Source: Flavobacteriales bacterium
Lineage (GTDB): Bacteria > Bacteroidota > Bacteroidia > Flavobacteriales_F > PHOS-HE28
Direction: 5' to 3'
NCBI GenBank assembly: GCA_016710685.1
Contig: JADJVC010000001.1
Span: forward strand, 200,948-264,947
DNA: 64,000 bases
This document shows positions 9,167 to 63,555 of the stretch, piece after piece. The notes below the pieces were generated by a model, which had not been told where the DNA came from, searched no databases, and saw only the letters and a list, made by a program, of their open reading frames with translations. The stretch's first letter is position 1; every line of letters begins with the position of its first letter. Made by a program: the position numbers and the translations under genes.

Positions 9167-11221
9167 ATGAAAGCATTTTACCTCCCCTTCGCCTTTGCCG
9201 CGCTTGCCGCAGTAACGGCCTCCGCGCAGTACAGCGCGACCATCACCATTACGGACTTCAGTACCGGTTTGCCGGTGGAGAATGCGACTGTTGCGCGCGG
9301 TGGCACTTCCATGACCACGAATGCAGCCGGTCAAGCCATTTTCCCCGGATTGCCGAACAACACGTACAGCTTTTCCGTGACCGCCACATGCTACTATCCC
9401 GGTGCCGGAATGATCACGATCGCTGGTGCCAATGCCGCGACATCCCTGGGACTGGATCCCATGGCCACCAACAACCTGTTCTTCTTCATCGGCGACCCGA
9501 TGGCGATCACGAGTGCATTCGTTGAAGTGACCAACGGAGGCAACTACTACGCGAGCTTCACGACGTTCGACACCTTCGGCGGCGAAATGCTGGCGGATGT
9601 GCCCTTCGGCGAAATGAGCTATACGATCACTACGCCCTGCTACGAAACGGTGACCGGCACAGTAACGGTTGATTGCAACAACGGCGACGGCATCGCGGTT
9701 TTTGAGAATCCGGGACCGGCCACCACTAACAACCTGTTCTTCTTCATCGGCGACCCGATGGCGATCACAGGCGCATTTGTTGAAGTGACCAACGGAGGCA
9801 ACTACTACGCGAGCTTCACGACATTCGACACCTTCGGCGGCGAAATGCTGGCGGACGTTCCCTTCGGCGAAATGAGCTATACGATCACGACGCCGTGCTA
9901 CGAAACGGTGACCGGCACAGTAACGGTTGATTGCAATAACGGCGACGGCATCGCGGTTTTTGAGAACCCGGCCCCAGCCACCACCAACAACCTGTTCTTC
10001 TTCATCGGCGACCCGATGGCGATCACGGGTGCATTCGTTGAAGTGACCAACGGTGGCAACTACTACGCGAGCTTCACGACATTCGACACCTTCGGCGGCG
10101 AAATGCTGGCGGACGTTCCCTTCGGCGAAATGAGCTATACGATCACCACACCGTGCTACGAAACAGTGACCGGCACAGTAACGGTTGATTGCAACAACGG
10201 CGACGGCATCGCGGTTTTTGAGAACCCGGCCCCGGCCACCACCAACAATCTCTTCTTCTATATCGGCGATCCGCTGGCGATCATCGGTGCATTCGTTGAA
10301 GTGACCAACGGTGGCAACTACTACGCGAGTTTCACGACGTTCGACACCTTCGGCGGCGAAATGCTGGCGGACGTGCCCTTCGGTGAAATGTCCTACACCA
10401 TCACCACGCCGTGCTTTGAAACGGTCACCGGCACGGTGATGGTTGATTGCAACAACGGCGACGGTATCTTGGTGGCAGCCGATCCAGGACCCGCAACCAT
10501 GAACAATTTGTTCTTCTACATCGGCGACCCGCTGGCGATTCTTGGTGCTACAGTGAATGTGACCGATGGCGGTAGCTACAATGAGAGCTTCGTGACGTTC
10601 GACACCTTCGGCGGCGAAATGCTGGCGGATGTGCCCTTCGGCGAGATGAGCTACATGATCAGCGCACCTTGCTACGAGACCGTGACCGGAACAGTGACGG
10701 TGGACTGCAACAATGGTGACGGCATTGCGATCTTCACCAATCCTGAACCGGTCGTCTTGGACGTTACAGTCGACGTGTCCGGGAATACCCTCATGGCCGC
10801 AGCCACCGGCATGGAGTACCAATGGGTGGATTGCGATAATGGCAATGCCCCGATCGATGGTGCCACGGCACAGAGTTTCCAGCCTACGGAAAATGGCAAC
10901 TATGCCGTGGTGATTTCCGACGGGGACTGCTCGCAAACCTCAACCTGCACAGCGGTGATCGTTACCGGGGTTGACCAGGTCGAAGGCCGGGATGCTTTCG
11001 CAGTTTACCCCAATCCGTTCGCTGACAGGCTCACTGTTCGAACCAATGGAAAGTTGGGTCCCGTCCGTGTGGAACTCCTCAGCTTGACCGGCCAAGTAAT
11101 CCTGGACGAGAGCGGCTCCGGCATGGAGATCAGCTTGCTGACTTCGGAGCTTCCTTCCGGTAGCTACTTGCTGCGTCTTTCGTCGGAAAGCGCCCGCACA
11201 ACGATCAGCGTGGTGAAGTAA
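9167..11221 (+). CDS. T9SS cargo protein containing five tandem 86-aa repeats and Por_Secre_tail CTD
   Basis: Signal peptide MKAFYLPFAFAALAAVTASAQ; repeat TNNLFFFIGDPMAIT...CNNGDGIAVFENPAPAT x5; C-terminal FAVYPNPFADRLTV...TISVVK CTD. Confidence 0.8.
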   Translation: MKAFYLPFAFAALAAVTASAQYSATITITDFSTGLPVENATVARGGTSMTTNAAGQAIFPGLPNNTYSFSVTATCYYPGAGMITIAGANAATSLGLDPMATNNLFFFIGDPMAITSAFVEVTNGGNYYASFTTFDTFGGEMLADVPFGEMSYTITTPCYETVTGTVTVDCNNGDGIAVFENPGPATTNNLFFFIGDPMAITGAFVEVTNGGNYYASFTTFDTFGGEMLADVPFGEMSYTITTPCYETVTGTVTVDCNNGDGIAVFENPAPATTNNLFFFIGDPMAITGAFVEVTNGGNYYASFTTFDTFGGEMLADVPFGEMSYTITTPCYETVTGTVTVDCNNGDGIAVFENPAPATTNNLFFYIGDPLAIIGAFVEVTNGGNYYASFTTFDTFGGEMLADVPFGEMSYTITTPCFETVTGTVMVDCNNGDGILVAADPGPATMNNLFFYIGDPLAILGATVNVTDGGSYNESFVTFDTFGGEMLADVPFGEMSYMISAPCYETVTGTVTVDCNNGDGIAIFTNPEPVVLDVTVDVSGNTLMAAATGMEYQWVDCDNGNAPIDGATAQSFQPTENGNYAVVISDGDCSQTSTCTAVIVTGVDQVEGRDAFAVYPNPFADRLTVRTNGKLGPVRVELLSLTGQVILDESGSGMEISLLTSELPSGSYLLRLSSESARTTISVVK
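9467..10757 (+). repeat. Five tandem 258-bp direct repeats inside the CDS; copies 1-3 nearly identical at DNA level, copies 4-5 diverged
   Basis: AACAACCTGTTCTTCTTCATCGGC recurs at 9470, 9728, 9986, 10244 and 10502, an exact 258-bp period. Confidence 0.9.
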
Positions 11222-11242: not shown

Positions 11243-11279
11243 GGGGCCGCCTCAGTTCGAGGCGGCCCCTTTTTCGTTT
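11243..11279. terminator. Rho-independent terminator hairpin (GGGGCCGCCTC-AGTTC-GAGGCGGCCCC + T-run) between convergent genes
   Basis: Perfect 11-bp GC-rich stem followed by TTTTTCGTTT, immediately after the stop at 11221. Confidence 0.7.
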
Positions 11280-16789: not shown

Positions 16790-17322
16790 CCCTGTGGGTG
16801 TTTAGGTTTCCTGCCAAACCTCCAGAAAGAAAAAGTGCTTGCGCGCACGCAGAAAAAGCGGGCACTTGGGCACGCCCCTTTCCTGGAAGCGATCATCCAA
16901 TGTGCCGGTGACAGGTCTTCTGGCTCGCCATTCTCCCCGGCGCCTTCCCATCCTCCTTGCGGTGGACAGTGGCTTCGTGCCGGTTCGTTTCAGGCTTACA
17001 GCTTCAGGAAAAGCCCGGGATTTGCACCCGGTTCCCTTTTAACCCCGCTTGTTACCACGGAGATCATCAGCGCGGCGAAGGTAGGTCGTTATGGAGATCT
17101 GGTGTGGTGAGAGAAATTTCTGGTACAGCGTATCGGGTACTGGGTACCGAGTACTGCCGACCGCCTGGCGACTGCATCTGCCAGCTGCAACTGCCGACTC
17201 TTCTCAGCGCCCCTGGCTGCCGAAGGCATGCTCTGCGTCAAAAAGCTCCGTGAACCTCTGTGCCTCCGTGCCTCTGTGGTGTAAAAAACACTCCATCGCT
17301 CCCCATTACCTTTGATCTCCCT

Positions 17323-26127: not shown

Positions 26128-28502
26128 TTGGATTTTCCACGTCGCCTTCATCTTTTCATCGCCACGGTCGCGGTGGCAACATCGCACACCGTGGCGCTGG
26201 GCCAATGTGGTACGTTCATCACCGCTTTCCCATCCAGCGAAGGTTTTGAGAATGCGGCTGTTTGGGTCAGTGGTGGCACTGCCAACGATTGGGCATGGGG
26301 CGTTCCAGCGCATCCCAACATCAACACGGCCGGTGGTGGATTGAAGGCATGGTGTGTGGGCGGGCTTTCCGGGACGTTCTACAACAACAACGAACGGTCT
26401 TGGTTGGAAAGCCCCTGTTTCGATTTTTCGAGCTTGAACACGCCGCGCATTTCCTTCAAGATCTACTGGGAAGTGGAGCGCCAGTACGATGGTATGATCC
26501 TGCAGTATTCCACCGACGGTGGTACCACGTACAACAACGTGGGTGCATTCGGGGAAGCCCGGATTGCAACACACAGAACTGGTTCAATTCGTCCAACATC
26601 ACCAACTTGGCCACTGGTATCAGCCCCAAGCACGGTTGGAGCGGCCGTGCTGGTAGTACCGTCGGCAGTTGCCAAGGCGGAAGCGGTAGCAATGGTTGGG
26701 TGACCGCCAGCCACTGCCTGGGCATGTTGGCGAATGCCCCCAGTGTGCGGTTCCGTTTTTCTTTCGGCGCGGGAAGTGTGTGCAACAACTACGACGGCAT
26801 CGCCATCGACGACATCTTGATCGATGAGGCACCGCCCGTCATTGCCGCATTCAGTGGCGACTGCACCGGCACTACCGTTGATTTCATCAACTCTTCCACA
26901 ACGTGCCCGAATCTCTTTTCGTGGAACTTCGGCGACCCCGGCTCCGCGCAGAACACTTCATCCCAGGAGAATCCCTCACATACGTACGCGGACCCCGGCA
27001 CCTATACCATCACGCTAACGGCCACCGACGGTTGCGGCGCTTCCGGCACGCACACCATGGACATCAGCGTGCTGGGTGTTACGCTCGCCACCACGCCGCC
27101 CACCTGCGGTGCGGACAATGGATCGGTGGAAGCCACCGTTTCCGGTGCGAACGGCGCGGTGAACTACCTCTGGTCGCCGGGTGGTGCGACAACACAAACG
27201 CTCGCAAACGTGGGTGCTGGCACCTACACGGTCACCGTTTCCGGGGTGAACAGTTGTCCGGTAACCGCCACCGCCACGCTTACTTCCAGCGGCACCACTT
27301 TAGCCGTTGATGTGGCCCACACGGACGTTTCGTACGCTGGCTTAAGCGATAGAACGACAACAGCGACAACGGTGGGCGGCGTGGCTCCGTTCAACTTTTC
27401 GTGGGCCCCCGGCAGTGAAAATTCAGCAGCTATCAGCAACCTGGCCGCCGGCGATTACACCTGCACCGTAACGGACGGCCAAGGATGCAGCGCGCAAGCC
27501 ACCGCCACGGTGGGCGCACCCGAACCGTTCGGCATAACGGCCGGGCCGGACACTGCCGTGTGTGCCGGAAATGCCGTGCTGTTGCAAGCCGAAGCCAACG
27601 GCGGCACGCCGGGCTACACCTTCAACTGGCTGCCTGATGGACCGGCGGTTACGCCCGCAGCCACCACCACCTACACCGTTGTAGCCACCGATGCCAACGG
27701 CTGCCAATCCGCCCCGGAAACCACCGTCGTAACCGTCTCTTCCAGCTTCACGCCCAGCTTCACGTCTACGGAAACTACGGGCTGTTCTCCGCATTGCATC
27801 ACCTTTTATCCCACGCCAGCAGGGGCTTCGGACTACTTTTGGGATTTCGGCGACGACGGTTCCGGCATTCTGGAATCGCCGACGTATTGCTACCAAACCG
27901 GCGGATTGTTTCCTGTGAGCCTCACCGTTACCGATGCCACCGGCTGCACCGGAACGGTAACCACACCGGACTATGCGGACATCCATGGCACGCCCACGGC
28001 CAGCTTCACACCATCACGCTACGTCACCACCATTGACGCACCCACCGTTCAGCTCAGCAACACCAGCCAGAACAGTACTTCGTGGTTCTGGACTTTCGAC
28101 CAAGGCGACACTGCCATGCAGCGCTCACCCAGCGTAACGTTCCCCGCCGTGGGTTGCTACACCGTGGCACTGGAAGCCAGCAACGACCTGGGTTGCCGCG
28201 ACACCGCCAGTGTGGAGATCTGTGTGGAAGACGCCTTCCTGCTGTTCATGCCCAACGCATTCACCCCGAATGACGACGGCATCAACGATGTGCTTCTGCC
28301 CAAAACTTCGGTGCGCAACCCCGCCGATTTCGAACTGAAGATCTTTGACCGCTGGGGCAAACAGGTCTTCAGCACGGAAGATATTTACGCGGGGTGGGAC
28401 GGAGGCACCACAACGAGCGGCATCTACATCTGGAAGATCTGGATTACCGATACGGATCAAAACGGCCACGAGCTGGTGGGCCATGTGGCGCTGTTGCGGT
28501 AG
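26128..28502 (+). pseudogene. MAM-like domain + SprB repeats + PKD domains + CHU_C CTD surface protein, interrupted by a frameshift at ~26556 (GGGGAAG context); start uncertain (TTG at 26128 or upstream)
   Basis: ORFs 25843..26703 and 26262..28502 overlap in different frames. Restoring one A in GGGGAA-GCC gives a continuous ...GAFGESPDCNTQNWF... The N-terminal hydrophobic signal is RRLHLFIATVAVATSHTVALGQC; the C-terminus is MPNAFTPNDDGINDVLL...FDRWGKQVF. Confidence 0.6.
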
Positions 28503-28544: not shown

Positions 28545-28990
28545 GACCAACTGTTTTTAGCCACAGATCCCGCCGATTACGCAGATGTTTCCCGCGTTGC
28601 GGGAAGGAACCCGCGGGTTCAGACTCCAATCGGCATTTATCTGTGTAATTCCGCTATTGCGGAACAGGTGCTGCGTAATCTGCGGCTCTACCTTTTGAGG
28701 CCGGCATTCACGTTGCGTCCGATACTTATCGGACCGTTGCGTACTTGGCTGCCGTAGGCATACCGTCGCGGTTCTCAACTTTGAGGCCGGTTTTCCGACC
28801 GCAGGTCGCGCTTAGCGGAATTCTTTGCGTGCTTTGCGTCCCCGGCTCCCGTAGGGCTGCATTAGGGGTATACCGATCAGAGGCCGGTATTCCCTTCCAC
28901 CGAAAAGCACCGCATCCAAAGGTTTCCCACTTCACCCTGTTGGTGAAACGTAGCGGTCTCCGGGTCGAAAAGCACACACGTTCCCGAATT
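28545..28990. repeat. Intergenic hairpin-rich repeat cluster (locus 1 of a dispersed family): CGCCGATTACGCAGAT + TTCCCGCGTTGCGGGAA core, TTCCGCTATTGCGGAA, three TGAGGCCGGnATTC units, CGACCGCAGGTCG and TCCGATACTTATCGGA hairpins
   Basis: Non-coding 497-bp gap. Its modules recur at 47995-48440 and 58280-58513 (e.g. TTTTTAGCCACAG..CGCCGATTACGC right after a stop codon in loci 1 and 2; identical TTTCCCGCGTTGCGGGAA hairpin in loci 1 and 3). Confidence 0.75.
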
Positions 28991-28998
28991 TCGCCGAC

Positions 28999-29406
28999 AT
29001 GGGGGAGCGTATTGCGCAATGGTGGCACCTGATGCCCGATGGTGGCAGCGGGATAATCCTATTGCTGGTGGAGTTGGTGGTCGCACTTACGGCAATGGGC
29101 TGGGCCTACAACCGGGGTTATCGCAACACGGAGCGCGGTTCCGTGCTGCGGTTGCCGTTGCTTACCGTGGCCTTCGGCTTGGGCTTGTTGGTAAAGCACC
29201 TCAGCGAACCTTGGTGGGCCGCGGCGGTCATTGCTTTAAGCGTATTGGTAGCAGGCTTTTTGGGCCGGAATGATAACGGTCGCGGGCTGGGCCTGCCGGT
29301 GATGCTCGTTGCTGCATTGCTCGGCTTCGGCATGCTGATCAGCGCAACTGCGTTAACGCTCGTGGCCATGATCGCCTACCTGCTCAGCCCTGTGAAAAAG
29401 CGATGA
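28999..29406 (+). CDS. Small hypothetical integral membrane protein (about 4 TM helices)
   Basis: Hydrophobic segments GIILLLVELVVALTAMGWAY, LLTVAFGLGLLV, AAAVIALSVLVAGFLG, VMLVAALLGFGMLISATALTLVAMIAYLL. Confidence 0.55.
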   Translation: MGERIAQWWHLMPDGGSGIILLLVELVVALTAMGWAYNRGYRNTERGSVLRLPLLTVAFGLGLLVKHLSEPWWAAAVIALSVLVAGFLGRNDNGRGLGLPVMLVAALLGFGMLISATALTLVAMIAYLLSPVKKR

Positions 29407-32392: not shown

Positions 32393-32455
32393 CCTTTTAA
32401 GGTTTCCGAGCCTTGACTATAGCTTCTGGGATTTTCAGCAACACAGAAATTACTG

Positions 32456-32521
32456 ATTGCTAATTCCTAATTCCGGCTGCCGACACGGCTTGCGGAATTA
32501 GGAATTAGGAATTAGCAATTA
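32456..32521. terminator. Unusual AT-rich long hairpin (19-bp stem ATTGCTAATTCCTAATTCC ... GGAATTAGGAATTAGGAATTAGCAAT) between convergent genes, overlapping the peptidase stop codon; putative bidirectional terminator
   Basis: Inverted repeat with GGAATTA direct sub-repeats, followed by a T-run on the minus strand and located between the stops of 31607..32392(+) and 32519..34687(-). Confidence 0.6.
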
Positions 32522-34687: not shown

Positions 34688-34809
34688 GGGGTGGGGGATG
34701 AAGGGGTAAAAGTAGCTTGAACCGTTTGGGCCGAGCGATTCGGCTGGATTGGATCTGGCAGAAGGCCATTAGTCTCAATGGGCGTGTGGCAGGCAACGCG
34801 GTTGGTATT

Positions 34810-35104
34810 GGTGCGGTAGATTCGCTGCCCCGAGACAAAAAGCGGAACCCACAAGCCGATCAGTTGATGGACGCCCGAAAATACTACTTCTCTCTTCTCA
34901 CTTTTATCGGCTCCCTAACGCTGGGTTTTACGGCATCGGCGCAGTCACTGCAGGTCTTGGACGGCACAAGCCGCCAACCCGTGGTGGGCGCGGTGCTGAC
35001 TTCGACGGACCCGGCGCGGCAAGCCACTTCGGATAGCACCGGCAGGGTAGACCTCGCTGTTTTTCCGGACAGTGCTTGGGTGCGCGTTGAACACATCGCC
35101 TTCC
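34810..35104 (+). repeat. Copy A of a ~300-bp direct repeat: degenerate 3' end of a T9SS CTD gene + promoter/RBS/first ~80 codons of the TonB-dependent receptor at 37692 (5' gene fragment 34867..35154)
   Basis: ~85% identity over the first ~110 bp and ~98% over the last ~190 bp with 37638..37936. The fragment encodes MDARKYYFSLLTFIGSLTLGFTASAQSLQVLDGTSRQPVVGAVLTSTDPARQATSDSTGRVDLAVFPDSAWVRVEHIAF and then diverges exactly where REP1 begins. Confidence 0.8.
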
Positions 35105-35744
35105 CACTAGCGCGAGCGTCCGCGCTCGTGCTTTCTCTACGCCGAAGCATCTAACTTTCCACCATGAGTGAGAGCTACAAATTTGTTGAGGGTCATGCTC
35201 ACTTCATCACGTTTGCGGTTGTGGGCTGGGTGGATGTATTCACACGACGCGCATATCCCGAGTTCCTATTGGAGAACTTGGCTTTTTGTCGAAAAAACAA
35301 AGGGCTTCGCCTTTATGACCTTGTGATCATGCCGAACCATTTGCATTTGATCGCAGCGGCTGCAAATGGCAGTTTGGGAGAGATTATGCGTGACTTCAAG
35401 ACCTTCACGAGCAAGGAACTGGTGAAGCGTATCGCCGCGAACCCCCAAGAAAGCCGGAAGGAGTGGATGCTCCGTGTGTTCCGCGAGCATGGTGCGGCAA
35501 ATCCACACAACAAGGACCACCAATTTTGGCAACAGAGCAACCGTCCGATCATTCTGGACAAGCCGGAATTGTTTGACCAGCGTAGGCGCTACCTTCGCGA
35601 GAATCCGTTACGTGCAGGCTTGGTAAATGATGAGTCAGCGTACATGTGGAGCAGTGCCAACCCGCATTTGGAGTTTGAGTTTGATGAAGCATAGAAACCG
35701 AGGAGATGGAAAAAGAGGCACGAGCGTGGACGCTCGCGCCAGTG
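35105..35744 (+). mobile_element. REP–RAYT–REP unit: REP-associated tyrosine transposase gene flanked by inverted REP hairpins
   Basis: REP1 35105-35132 CACTAGCGCGAGCGTCCGCGCTCGTGCT. REP2 35717-35744 GGCACGAGCGTGGACGCTCGCGCCAGTG is the reverse complement with 27/30 identity. Each folds into a ~10-bp imperfect stem. Confidence 0.75.
35164..35694 (+). CDS. REP-associated tyrosine transposase (RAYT; IS200/IS605 Y1-transposase family)
   Basis: 176 aa; HuH motif MPNHLHLI; C-terminal catalytic-Tyr helix RRRYLRENPLRAGLV; typical RAYT length; flanked by inverted REPs. Confidence 0.8.
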   Translation: MSESYKFVEGHAHFITFAVVGWVDVFTRRAYPEFLLENLAFCRKNKGLRLYDLVIMPNHLHLIAAAANGSLGEIMRDFKTFTSKELVKRIAANPQESRKEWMLRVFREHGAANPHNKDHQFWQQSNRPIILDKPELFDQRRRYLRENPLRAGLVNDESAYMWSSANPHLEFEFDEA

Positions 35745-36747
35745 TGGGACCTAACATCAGTCGCTTTCGACCCTGCGGACGAAAACACGATTTACATCGG
35801 TTATGCCTCGTCCCAATTCCTTTCCGGTTACAATGAACCTTATGGAAACAGGATGGTGTTTAAAATGGACGTTTCCGATTTGTCTCAATACCCAGCAGGA
35901 GATCTCCCATTTGATTGTCCGGGAACTCCTTGCGCCGACATTACCATGAACCTGCCGAATACGTTTATTTCCATTGGGGCCATGATGGCGGAGCAGGGTA
36001 GCGACGGTGGTCTCTACGTGGCTACTGAAGCCGGCGTGTTCTTTACCGATAACAAACGCATCGCAGCATTCAATCCTGTGCAGCCGGAAGATGCCGATGA
36101 CATGTCAAACACCAGTGGATGGGTAAAATTGGGCGGCAGTTTGCCACATGTCGGTTCGCGAGGGATTGAGGCGAACTACCAAGTGAATCGTGTGCGCGTA
36201 GGTCTGTATGGTCGGGGTGTATGGGAACATCATCTGCATTGCCCAGATACTTTGCAATTCAATGAAGCAGGGACATATGGAGCCGACAGGTACTTGGAGG
36301 CTATGCAAAATATCACTTCGGAAGCGATAGTTCCTACGGGACTCGATCTGAAGTATCGTGCTGGAGAGGAAGTCCGCCTTACACCCGGTTTTCATGCAGA
36401 ACCGGGTACACGCTTCCATGCCTTCATTCATCCTTGTGACGCACCCGGCAATAGCTTCCATCCGAAAGCGATGCAAGCTGGCGCACCGGAAGCTGAAATT
36501 GAAAACGAGTCTGTTTATGTGGGAATGGAACTTTACCCCAACCCCGCCAATGGGTCTTTCACAGTACGGGCCAATTTCATCTCGGAGAATGGAATAGCGA
36601 CCATTCGAGTATTTGGCCCTACAGGCAATTTGGCATTGTCATCGGTAATGCGTGGGCCGCAGCAGTTTATAGATTCCAGTGGCTTGCATGGCCTTTACAT
36701 GGTTGTGGTTGAATGTGCCGGTGTCCAACAGACCAGAAAAAATTATT
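35706..36747 (+). pseudogene. 5'-truncated T9SS cargo gene fragment (BNR/sortilin-like beta-propeller C-terminus + Por_Secre_tail CTD); no signal peptide, begins inside REP2
   Basis: ...GGLYVATEAGVFFTDNK..., then the CTD VYVGMELYPNPANGSFTVRANFISENGIATIRVF...LYMVVVE. The same frame continues without a stop into the next gene. Confidence 0.45.
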
Positions 36748-37647
36748 TTGCAATGAGAAAGTGGCTGTCACTCATCACCTTCTTTAGTATCAGTAGCGGT
36801 ATTTCTGCACAGTTCTACCCAGATTCCACAGGAACATGGTGCATCCGTGATTTGAATAATTCTACAGCATTAGATATAACCATGGAGATGAGAGTAGGTT
36901 ATGACACAATTATCAACGGGAATACCTATCAACTAATAGATGAATTTCACGGAGATGATAATTGGAGTGTACCTGAATATATTAAAACTTACTACGTTAG
37001 ATCAGATACTGCGGGAAATGGTTTTATCTACATTCCTGCTTTATCGGAAGAATACCTAACTGGAAATATTAATGTTAATGTTGGGGATACGATTGAAAAT
37101 TTATATATGGGGTTTTTAAGCAGCATTGCAATTGTTGATAGCGCAGTCATATTAACTAATGCGTCTGATACCGTGAGGCGCGTCTATGTTCGGCAACCAT
37201 GGATAGGCAATTCGTTTTCTTCAATTAAGTCATTTTGGCAATCTGGAATGGGTTGTTCATTTTGGACCATATATCAATTATGATGATTTTCAAGACTTGA
37301 CGTGTGTAATAGCCGACGGTCGATATACATTTTCATTAAGTATTCCAGGAAACCATGCCGATCAATTGCCAATTGTACCCTGCGAGTGTGTTGCAATTGC
37401 GACCAATGTGGAGGAAGGTATTAGCCGTGTACTCCCAAGTATCTTCCCCAACCCCTCAACCAGTACATTCACCATAAGGAATGCCTCGTGTTCAAACGAA
37501 ATAGCCGTATACACCACCACCGGCCACCGAGTATGGCAAGGCACCGGCAATACCATAGACCTAATCGCGCAGCCACCCGGCGTGTACACGGCGGTGGTGG
37601 CCACGGAGCGGGGTAGGCAGGCGGTGCGGTTAGTAGTGGTGCAGTAG
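36748..37647 (+). pseudogene. Mosaic T9SS cargo gene: low-GC (~35%) N-terminal module with signal peptide fused (across a frameshift near 37210-37285) to a GC-rich Por_Secre_tail CTD
   Basis: MRKWLSLITFFSISSGISAQ signal at 36748; AT-rich 36740-37420. Frame 0 stops at 37283, while frame +1 is open from 37207 and encodes ...SIFPNPSTSTFTIRNASCSNEIAVYTTTGHRVWQG...VRLVVVQ*. Confidence 0.45.
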
Positions 37648-37936
37648 ATTCGCTCCCCCGACACAAAACGCGGAACCCACAAGCCGATCAGTTGATGGAC
37701 GCCCGAAAATACTACCACGCATTTCTCACTTTCATCAGCTCCCTTGCGCTGGGTTTTACGGCTTCGGCGCAGTCACTGCAGGTCTTGGACGGCACAAGCC
37801 GCCAACCCGTGGTGGGCGCGGTGCTGACTTCGACGGACCCGGCGCGGCAAGCCACTTCGGATAGCTCCGGCAGGGTAGACCTCGCTGTTTTTCCGGACAG
37901 TGCTTGGGTGCGCGTTGAACACATCGCCTTTGAACC
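37638..37936 (+). repeat. Copy B of the ~300-bp direct repeat (authentic promoter and 5' end of the TonB-dependent receptor)
   Basis: See copy A. Confidence 0.8.
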
Positions 37937-46417: not shown

Positions 46418-46541
46418 TGTGTTACTGCCGCAGAGGCGCAGAGGCGCTGAGCATGCTAAGGCAACTCATGGACAGTTTAGGTCTGTTACTTTCTCGTATG
46501 CACCTCAGCGTTTCAGCGGTCAACGCTCCAACTCAAATAGG

Positions 46542-47994: not shown

Positions 47995-48440
47995 ATCCAT
48001 TTTTTAGCCACAGTTTTCGCCGATTACGCCGATGTTGCATTGCGGGGCGCGGGCGCGTTGGAAGCACATTGCCTACGGCAAAAAAAACCTGTGCAATCCT
48101 GATATGGTGGGACAGGTTCTGTGGACCTTTTTTCACGGCCACGATTCTTGTTTTGAGCCGCCGATTTCGCCGATTACGCCGATGTTGCATTGCGGGGCGC
48201 GGTCGAGTTGCAAACGCATTGCCTACGGCGAAAAATATGTGCAATCCCGCTCTGGCGGGACAGGTTCTGTGGCTCCCTCATTGAGGTCGGCATTCCGACC
48301 GAAGGTCGCATCTGTGTATATCCGAGGGTTTTTCATTGAGGCCGGTATTCATCTGTGTAATCCGTGTAATCTGTGGCTCTTCAATTAGTGCTCGCATTCC
48401 GTCCGACACGTATAGGACCGAAGCATCTATGGCATCTGTG
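47995..48440. repeat. Intergenic hairpin-repeat cluster (locus 2 of the dispersed family) including two tandem ~145-bp copies
   Basis: CGCCGATTACGCCGATGTTGCATTGCGGGGCGCGG...CATTGCCTACGGC.AAAAA...TGTGCAATCC...GGACAGGTTCTGTGG occurs twice (approx. 48020-48137 and 48162-48285). TGAGGTCGGCATTCCGACCGAAGGTCGC and TGAGGCCGGTATTC units match locus 1. Confidence 0.75.
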
Positions 48441-48475
48441 GAGCATTGATGGAACTAATACCCGATCTTCGCGCC

Positions 48476-51087: not shown

Positions 51088-51429
51088 CTACTTCAAGAAC
51101 GCACCATCCACCACCAGCAGCTTTACTGCATTCACGGTGCGCGAGCGGTGTTGGCTCAACCCATCGGAAACCGCGTAGGAGGATCCTGCCTTCATCACAG
51201 TGGTGGATCCATCTTTCAATTCATTGATGAGTTCGCCTTCAAGCACAAAGACCAAGTGGCCAAGTTCGCACCAGTGGTCCGCGAGGTAGTTCGCACTGTA
51301 CTCGACCATCCGGATACGCAAGTCGCCAAGTCGCTGGATCTGCATGGTGGCCGTGCCCGAAGTGCCGTTTACAACAGTGACGGGCACTTGCGCCCATTCG
51401 GTGATCTGGAAGGGGATGTGGAGAGGCAT
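51088..51429 (-). CDS. DHCW-motif cupin fold protein
   Basis: 113 aa; contains the literal DHWCEL motif; MPLHIPFQITEWAQVPVTVV... matches the family. Confidence 0.75.
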   Translation of the reverse strand: MPLHIPFQITEWAQVPVTVVNGTSGTATMQIQRLGDLRIRMVEYSANYLADHWCELGHLVFVLEGELINELKDGSTTVMKAGSSYAVSDGLSQHRSRTVNAVKLLVVDGAFLK

Positions 51430-51871
51430 GGTACGTCGAAGGTAGCTTTACGTGGCAGTCCGAAGACTGCTTGAAGCGATCTTGCCTTGATCGACTGAGC
51501 AGCCCACCACTCGCCCCGGCCTGTTTCAGCAGGAACTCACTTTATTGTTGGGCCAGACTGGCGGGAGGGCGGGGTCCGCGAGGTAGTTCGCACTGTACTC
51601 GACCATACGGATGCGTAGGTCGCCGAGCTGCTGGATCCTCATAGTGGCGGTGCCCGAAGTGTCGTTTACAATGGTGATGGGCACATGATCCCATTCGGTA
51701 ATATGGAAGGGGATGTGTAGAGGCATGGTACGTCGAAGGTAGCTTTACGTGGCAGTCTGAAGACTGCTTAAGCGATCTTGCCATGATCGACTGAGCAGCC
51801 CACCAGTCGCCCCGGCCTGTTTTCAGCAGGAACTCACTTTATTGTTGGGCCGGGAAGACTGGCGGGAGGGA
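51278..51871. repeat. Tandem ~297-bp duplication (51278-51574 and 51575-~51871) covering the cupin 5' coding region + leader, creating a truncated second copy
   Basis: GTCCGCGAGGTAGTTCGCACTGTACTCGACCAT... aligns at ~90% identity with a 297-bp offset; each copy ends in AGACTGGCGGGAGGG. Confidence 0.85.
51526..51726 (-). pseudogene. Truncated duplicate of the DHCW cupin gene (N-terminal ~52 aa, then unrelated tail)
   Basis: MPLHIPFHITEWDHVPITIVNDTSGTATMRIQQLGDLRIRMVEYSANYLAD then diverges (PALPPVWPNNKVSSC*). Confidence 0.55.
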
Positions 51872-51917
51872 GGGAAGACTGGAGGGAGGGGTGGGAAGAC
51901 TGGAGGGAGGGGTGGGG
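51852..51917. repeat. G-rich minisatellite (GGGAAGACTGGAGGGAGGGGT)x3, potential G-quadruplex former, at the edge of the tandem duplication
   Basis: gggaagactggcgggagggagggaagactggagggaggggtgggaagactggagggaggggtgggg. Confidence 0.8.
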
Positions 51918-52147
51918 ATTACCCAATCTCCCGCAAGTCTTCCCGGCTAACCAAGAATTGCGCTCCAACACAGACAGCCGGGGCGACTTGTGGGTTATGA
52001 AATTACTTGCATCCATGCTTTGCTCGTGAAGTCTTCGGACTTCACACAGAAACCGTTCAATACTTTACCAATTTCAGCAACCTAAGTTTCCGTCTAACGG
52101 CTGGCAATTAACGGAGAAAAAGCAAGTCCCTTGCTCATCCGCACCTC

Positions 52148-56648: not shown

Positions 56649-56742
56649 GCGGGGTGATTGGGGATGGGGTGCAAGTTGGGCACAGGGCGGGGTTAGTGGG
56701 CTTAAAGTTTGCAAAGATCGGATTCTTCACCGCAACGGGAAA

Positions 56743-56901
56743 GGTTTTAATCGCGGAGGGCGCGGAGAGCGCAAAGGATACTTACGAATGCGGGATGCTT
56801 TCGGCGAATGTGGTTCACCGCGACGTGCGCAACGCCTGAGGCTTTCGCTTGTTTTCGGATTCCTCTTCTCCGCGTTCTCCGCGCCCTCTGCGGTTAAAAC
56901 C
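56743..56901. repeat. Long imperfect inverted repeat (~30-bp arms, ~85-bp spacer) in the dapB–lepB intergenic region
   Basis: Left arm GGTTTTAATCGCGGAGGGCGCGGAGAGCGC (56743-56772); right arm GCGTTCTCCGCGCCCTCTGCGGTTAAAACC (56871-56900), the reverse complement with ~27/30 matches. Confidence 0.7.
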
Positions 56902-56914
56902 TCTTTTCTGCGGT

Positions 56915-58279: not shown

Positions 58280-58513
58280 GGCGTGACTCGGCGGAGACAG
58301 AATACGGAGATTCCCCAGAAGAGGCCGCAGATTTCGCCGATTTCGCCGATTTCGCCGATGGCTGCCATCGGCGGTAGTTGCCGGGCGGGCAGCTTTCCCG
58401 CAACGCGGGAAAAAATCTGCGTAATCGGCGCAATCTGAGGCTATCCCAAATGAGGACGGTCGCGTCAACGGCATTCCATTTTCTGATCGTCTGATCATCT
58501 GATCGTCTGATCC
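58280..58513. repeat. Intergenic hairpin-repeat cluster (locus 3 of the dispersed family) with (GATTTCGCCG)x3 and (TCTGATCR)x4 micro-tandem repeats
   Basis: The reverse complement contains CGCCGATTACGCAGATTTTTTCCCGCGTTGCGGGAAAG, the same core as locus 1. GCAGATTTCGCCGATTTCGCCGATTTCGCCGAT lies at 58328-58360 and TCTGATCGTCTGATCATCTGATCGTCTGATCC at 58481-58512. Confidence 0.75.
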
Positions 58514-63341: not shown

Positions 63342-63555
63342 TTAGTTGTCCGTTGTCCGTTGTACGGACGATTGGCTTATGCAGCTCGGCATCGCACCGC
63401 GGAGTGGTTGCACGCTTCGGTGTCTCAAGCGCAAAACGCTAACGCCCGTGCGATTGACTGAGGCCGTCGGCTGCATGCCGTCGTCAATGCATTTTGGCGT
63501 TTCAACGCAAGCCTGCGCCAGAGCACTTCGGCGCTGCGTGCCTGACAACTGACAA

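What the first reader, a model, noticed from the sequence alone, without database searches (positions are those of the whole stretch)
28545..28990. Dispersed hairpin-rich intergenic repeat family, locus 1 (core CGCCGATTACGCAGAT-TTTCCCGCGTTGCGGGAA)
The 497-bp non-coding gap after the CHU_C gene is built from short structured modules. TTTTTAGCCACAGATCCCGCCGATTACGCAGATG begins right after the stop codon. It is followed by the perfect hairpins TTCCCGC-GTT-GCGGGAA and TTCCGC-TATT-GCGGAA. Three units begin TGAGGCCGG(C/T)ATTC, at 28697, 28780 and 28875, and further hairpins are CGACC-GCA-GGTCG and TCCGATA-CT-TATCGGA. The same modules, in the same order, recur at 47995-48440. The 35-bp core (CGCCGATTACGCAGAT + GCGGGAA hairpin) recurs nearly exactly, inverted, at 58370-58410. 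Three loci in 64 kb points to a genome-wide REP/BOX/MITE-like element or a family of small structured RNAs. The family is distinct from the RAYT-flanking REP.
Basis: seen in the sequence. Interest (0 to 1): 0.7.

Follow-up and report, generated by a model that had tools for sequence, protein, structure and literature searches.

The report
Dispersed intergenic hairpin repeat family
Three gaps between genes in this uncultured Flavobacteriales genome hold copies of a ~130-base hairpin-forming repeat whose arms are built from 9-base "words". It behaves as fast-changing, dispensable inserted DNA of the REP/MITE kind, but hairpins built from the same words occur in at least seven bacterial phyla, and that is unexplained.

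Summary
The modules occur at three window loci and nowhere else in the 64 kb: 28554-28900 (+), 48001-48445 (+) and 58322-58447 (-).

One full unit is a ~125-150 nt foldback:
- Left arm: TA-GCCNCAGAT plus 9-nt words CGCNGATNN.
- Centre: small GC hairpins.
- Right arm: GGCATTC plus words ATCTGYGNA, ending CTGYGGCT.

The "TGAGGCCGGYATTC units" are solo right halves.

It is not a conserved RNA gene:
- There is no Rfam match.
- Orthologous gaps in a sister species are empty (47 vs 506-758 nt; 164 vs 497 nt).
- Strains of the same species differ by whole 9-nt words, small hairpins and 103/150-nt units, while the flanks are 98-99% identical.

The best reading is a lineage-specific, non-autonomous REP/BIME/MITE-like mosaic repeat, probably co-transcribed with its neighbours. 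All copies share the sense of their flanking genes, and the sense strand folds better. Only four loci are known, so high genome-wide copy number is not shown. The mobilising enzyme is unknown; the local RAYT has different flanking repeats.

One result was unexpected. Hairpins with near-identical word arms occur in intergenic DNA of seven phyla, including two cultured strains. The constant word positions are conserved, but the variable ones are not complementary between arms. I found no published description.

The parts
28554..28687 (+). Locus 1, full foldback unit. T-run 28554-28558. Left arm AGCCACAGAT-CCCGCCGAT-TACGCAGAT at 28559-28586. Inner hairpins at 28589-28605 and 28610-28617. CGGCATTT junction at 28631-28638. 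Right arm ATCTGTGTAAT at 28639-28649, an inserted hairpin TCCGCTATTGCGGA plus ACAGGTG at 28650-28670, then CTGCGTAATCTGCGGCT at 28671-28687.
   Evidence: (D6, I1). RNA fold -55.8 kcal/mol, z -4.3. The core is 85% identical between strain haplotypes, with 9-nt word indels, against 98-99.4% in the flanks.
28696..28779 (+). Locus 1, solo right-half unit 1. Head TGAGGCCGGCATTC at 28696-28709. Words ACGTTGCGT / CCGTTGCGT flank the hairpin at 28718-28733.
   Evidence: The 15-nt hairpin CCGATACTTATCGGA (28719-28733) is precisely absent in the second strain haplotype.
28782..28839 (+). Locus 1, solo right-half unit 2. Head TGAGGCCGGTTTTC. Hairpin CGACC-GCA-GGTCG at 28796-28808. Words CTTTGCGTG-CTTTGCGT at 28823-28839.
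28879..28900 (+). Locus 1, degenerate third head AGAGGCCGGTATTC. The sequence after about 28905 is the conserved upstream region of the 135-aa gene and is not part of the repeat.
   Evidence: The sister species keeps only the last ~90 nt of the gap.
48001..48128 (+). Locus 2, unit 2a. TTTTTAGCCACAG...CGCCGATTACGCCGAT, a different inner insert, a hairpin plus ACAGGTT, then CTGTGGAC followed by TTTTTT.
   Evidence: (D6, D7, D9).
48151..48277 (+). Locus 2, unit 2b. Tandem copy of 2a with a 150-nt period and 88% identity, ending CTGTGGCTCC.
   Evidence: D7. Strains carry 2 or 3 copies of this unit.
48278..48445 (+). Locus 2, right-half units. Heads at 48282 and 48337. Right arm ATCTGTGTAATCCGTGTAATCTGTGGCTC at 48351-48379. 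The last unit ends ATCTATGGCATCTGTGG and abuts the recN start codon at 48449.
   Evidence: Other strains carry an extra ~103-nt unit here.
58322..58447 (-). Locus 3, full foldback unit on the minus strand, which is the sense of both flanking genes. Left arm TAGCCTCAGATTGCGCCGATTACGCAGAT at 58443-58415. Hairpin TCCCGCGTTGCGGGA. Two further hairpins. Right arm (GAAATCGGC)x3-GAAATCTGCGGCC.
   Evidence: I1, I6, I7; I4. RNA fold -68.6 kcal/mol, z -5.5. The orthologue L085 has one 9-nt word fewer.
58452..58512 (+). Locus 3, adjacent head-like piece TGAGGACGG..GGCATTCC followed by four 8-nt words TCTGATCN. It runs up to the stop codon of the tricorn-protease gene and is inverted relative to the core.

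Best explanation
This is a lineage-specific family of non-autonomous, hairpin-forming (foldback) repeat DNA. Its closest analogues are REP/BIME mosaics and MITEs.

**Anatomy.** One unit is ~125-150 nt. It has two inverted arms made of 2-4 tandem 9-nt words: CGCNGATNN on the left and the reverse complement on the right. The arms are closed by GCCNCAG/CTGNGGC and enclose one to three small GC hairpins. Half-units, consisting of a GGCATTC head plus words, accumulate next to full units.

**Shown**
- The arrays were inserted or expanded in gene-to-gene spacers of this species after it split from its sister species.
- They are dispensable.
- They change quickly by gain and loss of whole words, precise gain or loss of small hairpins, segment replacement, and unequal recombination of 103- and 150-nt units.

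**Inferred**
- They are co-transcribed with the flanking co-directional genes and fold in the mRNA. At most they act as 3'-end or intercistronic hairpins that affect stability or pausing. They are not strong terminators.
- Copies spread by an unidentified transposition or copy-and-paste step that recognises the word arrays.
For: - **Dispersed and non-random.**. A fourth, unlinked locus has the same modules (L086). The left ~50 nt is roughly 85-90% identical between unlinked loci, judged by eye from the copies printed; no identity was computed.
- **Foldback structure.** z = -4.3 and -5.5.
- **Non-coding.** ORFs across the arrays have no Pfam hit. No Rfam hit.
- **Empty orthologous sites in sister species GCA_016719225.1** (coding identity 80-88%):
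  - PHO4-recN gap is 47 nt against 506-758 nt.
  - CHU_C to 135-aa gene gap is 164 nt against 497 nt, with only the last ~90 nt conserved.
  - No family motif in about 84 kb of fetched loci (some overlapping) from relatives.
- **Strain-level turnover.** Core 85% identical plus indels, against 98-99.4% in the flanks. Strains carry 2 or 3 copies of the 150-nt unit and one extra 103-nt unit or none. Locus 3 has 2 or 3 GAAATCGGC words.
- **Orientation.** Every core copy found at the 4 loci (six distinct units) has the sense of both neighbouring genes, and locus 3 is inverted together with its genes.
- **Strand asymmetry.** The sense strand folds better than the antisense strand in 6 of 6 independent units, with more G-U pairs (30 vs 15).
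- **Not a strong terminator.** The locus 2 array abuts the recN start codon, while in the sister species recN follows PHO4 directly.
Against: - No target-site duplication could be defined.
- No autonomous element or transposase carrying these arms was found.
- Copy number beyond four loci is unknown. The strict-pattern metagenome scan found very few.
- The empty sites are in a species too diverged to show exact insertion boundaries, so local de novo growth by slippage and duplication is not excluded.
- The orientation bias (4 of 4 loci) and the strand-folding asymmetry rest on few independent units.
- No expression data are available.
Confidence: 0.6

Rival explanations
1. Selected RNA-level element. 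The hairpins exist because they pause or terminate transcription or protect mRNA 3' ends. The word arrays supply repeated TGYG-type sites downstream of a hairpin, whichever direction they are read in.
For: - Within the window, the word hairpins I noted lie downstream of gene 3' ends, at co-directional or convergent gaps: 32448-32520, 56742-56902, 63342-63555 and 46426-46520.
- Sense orientation at 4 of 4 loci.
- The sense strand is more stable in 6 of 6 units and in 7 of 10 cross-phylum co-directional cases.
- Unit 2a is followed by TTTTTT.
- The convergent-gap hairpin at 32448-32520 keeps its position in the sister species but uses different words.
- The words contain G-Y-G, the core of the elemental pause consensus. 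This rests on my own knowledge and was not tested.
Against: - The arrays are absent from the orthologous gaps of the sister species, so they are not required there.
- Most units lack a 3' U-run. Across phyla the flanks tend to be a 5' T-run and a 3' A-run, the reverse of a terminator.
- 5 of 17 cross-phylum hairpins with a gene on both sides lie in divergent (5'-5') gaps, as expected by chance.
- The genome also has canonical terminators, for example around 11245-11277.
- recN sits directly behind the array.
Confidence: 0.2
2. The word arrays are binding sites for a sequence-specific protein, such as a transposase, recombinase or nucleoid protein. That protein is shared by many phyla and defines a cross-phylum mobile foldback element.
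For: - 20 clear hairpins with arms GCCGCRGAT-TNCGCNGAT-TWCGCNGAT occur in six phyla. Cultured Haliscomenobacter and Gemmatirosa also carry them, adding a seventh phylum.
- In the unconstrained right arms the constant word positions match at 95-100%. The variable positions are complementary in only 4/20 to 9/19 cases. That is the signature of word recognition rather than of base pairing.
- Different inner cargo sits between identical arms within one genome (L007, L018 and L026).
- Permuted-word control hairpins gave no plasmid hits, against 3 records for the real words.
Against: - No associated protein gene was found.
- Arms 1-3 kb apart enclose ordinary housekeeping genes.
- No target-site duplication.
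- Absent from phage and IMG/VR hits.
- The same genomes hold hairpins with many other word types of 7-9 nt periods. If word hairpins are very common, some cross-phylum identity could come from sampling a huge population.
Confidence: 0.2
3. REP/REPIN family mobilised by the RAYT (Y1 transposase) encoded in the window at 35164-35694.
For: - A RAYT is present: Pfam Y1_Tnp at 26.3 bits, and sources name it RayT.
- REPINs are inverted doublets that form long hairpins.
- REPs are sometimes nested inside longer palindromes (PMC3733652).
- Two small hairpins begin with CGTC (28716, 48400).
Against: - The RAYT is flanked by an unrelated 27-nt palindromic repeat that occurs nowhere else in the window.
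- The arms of this family are not themselves palindromes and carry no GTAG or CGTC end tag.
- Orientation follows transcription, not one replication strand, since locus 3 is inverted within the same 64 kb.
Confidence: 0.05
4. A family of cis-regulatory or small structured RNAs under purifying selection.
For: Stable predicted folds. Sense-strand bias. Conserved small hairpin TYCCGC-NNNN-GCGGRA-CAGGTK at equivalent word junctions in loci 1, 2 and L086.
Against: - No Rfam family matches, either in the window or on 18 cross-phylum loci.
- The flanking genes are unrelated to each other.
- Absent at orthologous sites in the sister species.
- Large structural polymorphism within the species.
- Units 2a and 2b fold no better than shuffled sequence (z -0.7 and -0.1).
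Confidence: 0.06
5. No mobility at all. Each array grew in place by replication slippage and template switching in a palindrome, and the similarity between loci comes from gene conversion.
For: Word-number changes, unit duplications and segment replacement between strains are observed directly. No target-site duplication and no transposase were found.
Against: A ~50-nt left module (roughly 85-90% identical by eye in the copies listed; no identity was computed), including a non-repetitive hairpin, is shared by four unlinked loci that are empty in the sister species. Some copying between loci is therefore required to seed them.
Confidence: 0.1

Closest known systems
REP / BIME mosaics of enterobacteria (own knowledge: Gilson, Bachellier, Espeli; survey in PMC3733652)
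   Same: Intergenic and non-coding. Clusters combine palindromic units with other short conserved motifs. They lie between co-transcribed or convergent genes, vary between strains, and can act as RNA hairpins in the transcript.
   Different: There is no sequence similarity and no GTAG or CGTC tag. The arms are tandem 9-nt words rather than a single 35-nt palindrome. They are not associated with the local RAYT. Known copy number is low.
MITE-like palindromic elements: Correia/NEMIS (Neisseria), ERIC/IRU (own knowledge)
   Same: Foldback of about 100-150 nt with terminal inverted repeats of about 26-30 nt. Co-transcribed with neighbouring genes. Presence/absence differs between related genomes.
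   Different: No TA or other target duplication was found, and no parent IS. The inverted repeats are internally repetitive. Half-units accumulate in tandem.
BOX elements of Streptococcus pneumoniae (own knowledge)
   Same: Modular structure (boxA, a variable number of boxB, boxC) with a variable number of internal tandem modules. Forms stable hairpins in intergenic DNA.
   Different: The modules here are 9-nt words and small hairpins, not ~45-nt boxes. The sequence and the phylum are unrelated.
Eukaryotic Foldback (FB) transposons (own knowledge)
   Same: Long inverted arms that are themselves arrays of short tandem subrepeats, with variable repeat number and variable central cargo.
   Different: This is an architectural analogy only. 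FB elements are eukaryotic, kilobase-sized, and have associated transposase genes.
REPIN-RAYT systems (own knowledge: Bertels and Rainey; Nunvar)
   Same: Inverted doublets that fold into a long hairpin. A RAYT gene is present in the genome.
   Different: The cognate repeats flanking the RAYT are a different sequence. No link could be shown.

Membership tests
REP (RAYT-associated) | A 20-40 nt imperfect palindrome with a GTAG or CGTC tag at one end (PMC3733652) | tested here: not met
   The arms are not self-palindromic and end in GCCNCAG/CTGNGGC. Only two small inner hairpins happen to start with CGTC.
REP (RAYT-associated) | The same repeat flanks the RAYT gene in inverted orientation | tested here: not met
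   The RAYT at 35164-35694 is flanked by CACTRGCGCGAGCGTCCRCGCTCGTGC, which occurs only there (I8, 66, 68).
REP (RAYT-associated) | Tens to hundreds of copies per genome | not testable with these tools
   The source genome was not in the scanned collections. Only 4 loci are known.
MITE | Terminal inverted repeats | tested here: met
   Arms of 27-36 nt with 84-86% complementarity (I1, I6, I7; I4). Folds.
MITE | Target-site duplication of fixed length | tested here: inconclusive
   The 5' flank is often (T)nTA. The 3' flank is T followed by a variable base. No consistent duplication was seen.
MITE | A parent IS or transposase carrying the same termini | tested here: not met
   None in plasmid, phage or viral collections, nor between distant arm pairs. 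ISfinder is not available.
MITE | Presence/absence between related genomes | tested here: met
   Sister-species gaps are 47 and 164 nt against 506-758 and 497 nt. These are array-level differences, not single clean insertions.
BIME-like mosaic | Clusters combining palindromic units with other conserved short motifs in 3'/intercistronic spacers | tested here: met
   All 4 loci hold at least 2 units made of arm, hairpin and head modules, and all lie between co-directional genes.
Curated structured RNA family (Rfam 15) | Match to a covariance model at or near the gathering score | tested here: not met
   The best score is 16.7 bits against gathering thresholds of 35-55. There are no hits on 18 cross-phylum loci.
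Cis-regulatory RNA (generic) | Conserved at orthologous positions in related species | tested here: not met
Intrinsic terminator | GC-rich stem followed within 0-2 nt by a U-run | tested here: not met
   Only unit 2a (48114-48128 plus TTTTTT) and a weak site at 28670-28686 qualify. Counts are close to the shuffle expectation.
CRISPR array | Regularly spaced identical repeats separated by unique spacers | tested here: not met
   The 150-nt tandem units are whole-unit duplications with no unique spacers.

The most novel reading that the evidence does not exclude
The window family is one local branch of an undescribed, cross-phylum class of foldback elements. Their arms are arrays of a 9-nt word with a fixed core (CGC-N-GAT). 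That core is read sequence-specifically by a conserved but unidentified factor: a transposase or recombinase, or the transcription machinery acting at repeated G-Y-G pause-like sites. On this reading the same arms appear in Acidobacteriota, Verrucomicrobiota, Chloroflexota, Bacillota, Bacteroidota, Gemmatimonadota and Pseudomonadota because of shared recognition, not because of chance or base pairing alone.
Probability: 0.2. Interest if true: 0.75.

Novelty: new variant of a known kind. Interest (0 to 1): 0.45.

Why it matters
At window level this is ordinary selfish or near-neutral repeat DNA. It is useful mainly in three ways:
- As a marker of strain variation.
- As a warning that gene callers place spurious ORFs on it; one strain's annotation has a 131-aa "gene".
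- As a likely cause of assembly breaks.

The wider point is that intergenic hairpins built from short tandem words are common in this genome. One word type (CGCNGAT) recurs with near-identical arms in seven phyla, with a conservation pattern that suggests sequence recognition. If that holds, it would define a widespread non-coding element class in poorly studied environmental phyla. Two cultured carriers are available for experiments: Haliscomenobacter hydrossis DSM 1100 and Gemmatirosa kalamazoonensis KBS708.

Tried and rejected
- **Rfam.** Gathering threshold on the whole window, E-value mode on each locus, and gathering threshold on 18 cross-phylum loci. Nothing relevant was found.
- **tRNA/tmRNA.** None.
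- **Coding.** ORFs over the arrays have no Pfam match.
- **Known mobile DNA.** blastn of the unit against plasmids and phages gave no match. The viral-contig scan for the arm found only coding MPQ/AD-type tandem repeats.
- **Autonomous element.** Arm pairs 1-3 kb apart in L045 and L062 enclose housekeeping genes, not a transposase.
- **RAYT link.** Rejected.
- **Terminator.** Scan counts are near chance.
- **Source genome.** Not present in genome contigs. recN and one other protein were not on record. Extending the window gained only about 4.5 kb.
- **Literature.** Literal word sequences gave 0 papers. Descriptive searches returned only general REP surveys.
- **Target-site duplication.** TA was considered and found inconsistent.
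- **Chance resemblances.** Similarities of the 9-mer to the DnaA box, the IHF site and the 16S 3' end were considered and dismissed as numerology.

Full report
**1. Check of the observation**

The gap after the PKD/CHU_C gene (stop at 28502; Pfam) runs to the start of a 135-aa gene at 28999. Three coordinates need small corrections:
- The TTTTTAGCC... string starts at 28554, 52 nt after the stop codon.
- The three heads are at 28696, 28782 and 28879.
- The inverted copy lies at 58394-58444.

The recurrence is far beyond chance:
- The 16-mer core has 12 hits at up to 3 mismatches against 0.63 expected, with 0 of 100 shuffles reaching that.
- The head has 6 hits against 1.1 expected.
- The repeat finder links the three loci directly (D6, D7, D9, I1, I6, I7).
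- nhmmer profiles of the left and right modules find only these three loci in the 64 kb.

**2. Anatomy**

The "35-bp core" is the left arm plus the first inner hairpin of a ~125-150 nt foldback.

Locus 1 (28554-28687) reads, in order:
- TTTTT-A-GCCACAGAT-CCCGCCGAT-TACGCAGAT
- hairpin TTCCCGC-GTT-GCGGGAA
- CCCGCGGG
- ...CGGCATTT
- ATCTGTGTAAT
- [TCCGCTATTGCGGA-ACAGGTG]
- CTGCGTAATCTGCGGCT

The arms are therefore tandem 9-nt words: CGCNGATNN on the left and the reverse complement on the right.

Folding results:
- Locus 1 folds at -55.8 kcal/mol (z -4.3).
- Locus 3, on the minus strand, folds at -68.6 kcal/mol (z -5.5).
- The two tandem units of locus 2 keep only the outer stem (z -0.7 and -0.1).

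The TGAGGCCGGYATTC "units" are homologous to the junction CGGCATTT/C plus right-arm words. Compare 48337-48379, and L086. They are solo right halves: a constant head followed by 2-3 tandem 8-9-nt words, sometimes with a small hairpin between words.

**3. Source and a fourth locus**

Exact protein look-ups place the window in a Flavobacteriales MAG (MBK85804xx, 429-kb contig). The same species was assembled many times from JGI and ENA metagenomes.

The genome was not in the species-representative collection. A strict-pattern scan of JGI metagenome contigs returned only orthologues of locus 2 (L084, L087), an orthologue of locus 3 (L085), and one new locus, L086.

L086 has two units with the same modules. 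They sit between two co-directional genes, again in the sense orientation. In L086 the hairpin TTCCGC-YATK-GCGGAA plus CAGGTG sits inside the left arm, as the reverse complement of its position in the right arm of locus 1.

**4. It is dispensable and fast-changing**

*Sister species.* A sister species (GCA_016719225.1; coding identity 88%, 83% and 80% for three genes) has the same gene order but different gaps:
- PHO4 and recN are 47 nt apart, against 506 nt in the window and 609-758 nt in other strains.
- The CHU_C to 135-aa gene gap is 164 nt against 497 nt. Only the last ~90 nt, the upstream region of the 135-aa gene, is conserved.

No family motif occurs in about 84 kb of fetched loci (some overlapping) from this and other relatives.

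*Within the species.* Two haplotypes of locus 1 have flanks that are 98.0% and 99.4% identical, but the core is only 85% identical plus indels. The haplotypes differ in these ways:
- One 9-nt word in the left arm.
- One 9-nt word in the right arm.
- A replaced inner segment.
- Precise presence or absence of the 15-nt hairpin CCGATACTTATCGGA between the words ACGTTGCGT and CCGTTGCGT.

At the other loci:
- Locus 2 varies by 2 or 3 copies of the 150-nt unit and by one extra ~103-nt unit.
- Locus 3 varies by one GAAATCGGC word.

This rules out a conserved regulatory RNA and fits repeat DNA that evolves by slippage, unequal exchange and conversion.

**5. What it is not**
- There are no Rfam hits at or near threshold, and no tRNA or tmRNA.
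- ORFs over the arrays have no Pfam domain.
- There is no similarity to plasmids or phages.
- The window's RAYT (Y1_Tnp, 35164-35694) is flanked by a different 27-nt palindromic repeat found only there.
- Terminator-like sites are at chance level. Only unit 2a is followed by a T-run.

**6. Hints of an RNA-level aspect**
- Every core copy found at the four loci (six distinct units) points in the sense direction of both flanking genes. Locus 3 is inverted together with its genes, so orientation follows transcription rather than a replication strand.
- The sense strand folds better than the antisense strand in 6 of 6 independent units and has 30 G-U pairs against 15.
- In cross-phylum co-directional cases the sense strand is better in 7 of 10.

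These samples are small, so I treat this as suggestive.

The locus 2 array runs up to the recN start codon, whereas in the sister species recN directly follows PHO4. From this I infer that the array cannot be an efficient terminator.

**7. The wider class**

*Word hairpins in this genome.* The window has other hairpins whose arms are tandem words with different vocabularies:
- 32448-32520 (TAATTCC)
- 56742-56902 (GCGGAGNGC)
- 63342-63555 (GTTGTCC)
- 46426-46520 (GCAGAGGC)
- 51848-51957

All of these lie at gene 3' ends, and I noted no comparable word hairpin in the divergent gaps I read.

*Genome-collection scan.* Scanning 185,579 species genomes with the left-arm pattern gave 63 loci. About half are coding coincidences, for example a conserved gene in Pseudolabrys. 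Twenty are clear hairpins with arms GCCGCRGAT-TNCGCNGAT-TWCGCNGAT, a loop, and the reverse complement.

Going by the record titles, the twenty come from:
- Acidobacteriota
- Verrucomicrobiota
- Chloroflexota
- Symbiobacteriaceae
- Bacteroidales
- Salinisphaera

All but one lie outside my crude ORF map (L048 falls inside a stop-to-stop ORF that is probably spurious). Of the 17 with a mapped gene on both sides, 10 lie in co-directional gaps, 2 in convergent gaps and 5 in divergent gaps, which is close to random for spacers.

*Cultured carriers.* A consensus hairpin also hits cultured organisms:
- Haliscomenobacter hydrossis DSM 1100, plasmid pHALHY03, between an SDR gene and a SIS-domain gene.
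- Gemmatirosa kalamazoonensis megaplasmids.

*Controls.* Two permuted-word controls and a GCGGAG-word hairpin gave no true hits.

*Conservation pattern.* The search did not constrain the right arms. In them:
- The constant word positions agree with the left arm at 95-100%.
- The variable positions are complementary in only 4/20 to 9/19 cases.

This is what word-level sequence constraint predicts, and it is not what selection for pairing alone predicts.

*Limits.*
- No transposase lies between distant arm pairs.
- The arm is not found as a hairpin in viral contigs.
- No Rfam family covers these loci.
- Six literature searches found no description. The REP survey PMC3733652 does record REPs nested inside longer palindromes.

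**8. Verdict**

- "Genome-wide" is unproven, since only four loci are known.
- "Small structured RNA family" is not supported.
- The most likely account is a lineage-specific, non-autonomous foldback repeat that is co-transcribed with its neighbours and turns over rapidly.
- The open and more interesting question is why the same 9-nt word arms recur across phyla.

Noticed in passing
window 16893-17083 (-): Cobalamin riboswitch, Rfam RF00174, 110.8 bits, full length. Just beyond it, at 17140-17280, are more tandem-word stretches (CTGCCGAC; CCTCTGTG/CCTCCGTG).
   Followed up: no
window 34788-37915: A 2.8-kb segment carries a RAYT (Y1_Tnp, 35164-35694), its 27-nt inverted flanking repeats (35105-35131 and 35718-35744), and a 525-aa ORF with a weak Por_Secre_tail hit. 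It is bracketed by 300-nt direct repeats (93% identical) that duplicate the CarboxypepD_reg N-terminus of the TonB-dependent receptor gene. The sister species has no RAYT at this position (D2, 44, 66, 68, 75).
   Followed up: partly
window 32448-32520; L100 11170-11250: A convergent-gene gap is filled by a hairpin whose arms are TAATTCC words. The sister species has a hairpin at the same place with different words (GATCAGGAATTC type), and the central CCGGCTGCCGAC piece is in the opposite orientation relative to the genes (I4, 23, 45).
   Followed up: partly
window 56742-56902: A 160-nt hairpin between convergent genes has arms made of GCGGAGNGC words. The same words occur next to the CGCNGAT hairpin of a Verrucomicrobia MAG (L049) (I5, 13).
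   Followed up: no
window 63342-63555: The whole convergent gap is one long imperfect hairpin with GTTGTCC / GACAAC words at its two ends.
   Followed up: no
window 46426-46520: A word hairpin (GCAGAGGC words against CCTCAGCG/TTCAGCGG) lies in the 124-nt spacer between the DUF47 (PhoU_div) and PHO4 genes.
   Followed up: no
window 51276-51957: A 297-nt tandem duplication (51276-51870, 84-96% identical) is followed by three 21-nt repeats GGGAAGACTGGAGGGAGGGGT, with an inverted partner at 51928-51957 (D3, D12, D14, D16, I9).
   Followed up: no
window 9465-10796: Five tandem 258-nt (86-aa) repeats lie inside a 692-aa CarboxypepD_reg/PEGA/Por_Secre_tail protein gene (D1, 75).
   Followed up: no
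window 11245-11277: A canonical bidirectional intrinsic terminator (AAAATAGGGAAGGGGCCGCCTC-AGTTC-GAGGCGGCCCCTTTTT) lies between convergent genes. The genome therefore does use ordinary terminators.
   Followed up: no
L026 5998-6287 (Acidobacteriota MAG CAYHCX010000009.1): A near-perfect 290-nt palindrome is bounded by two 33-nt copies of the GCCGCAGATTACGCCGATTACGCAGAT arm. Predicted fold is -202 kcal/mol.
   Followed up: partly
L102 (Logan SRR24208139 contig, 6003 nt): A short-read contig of the same species ends 183 nt past the tricorn-protease stop codon, inside locus 3. This is consistent with assemblies breaking at this repeat.
   Followed up: no
L074 6723-7118 and L080 6735-7169: Public gene calls place 131-aa and 144-aa hypothetical "genes" with no Pfam hit on the locus 2 repeat array. 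These are probably spurious.
   Followed up: partly
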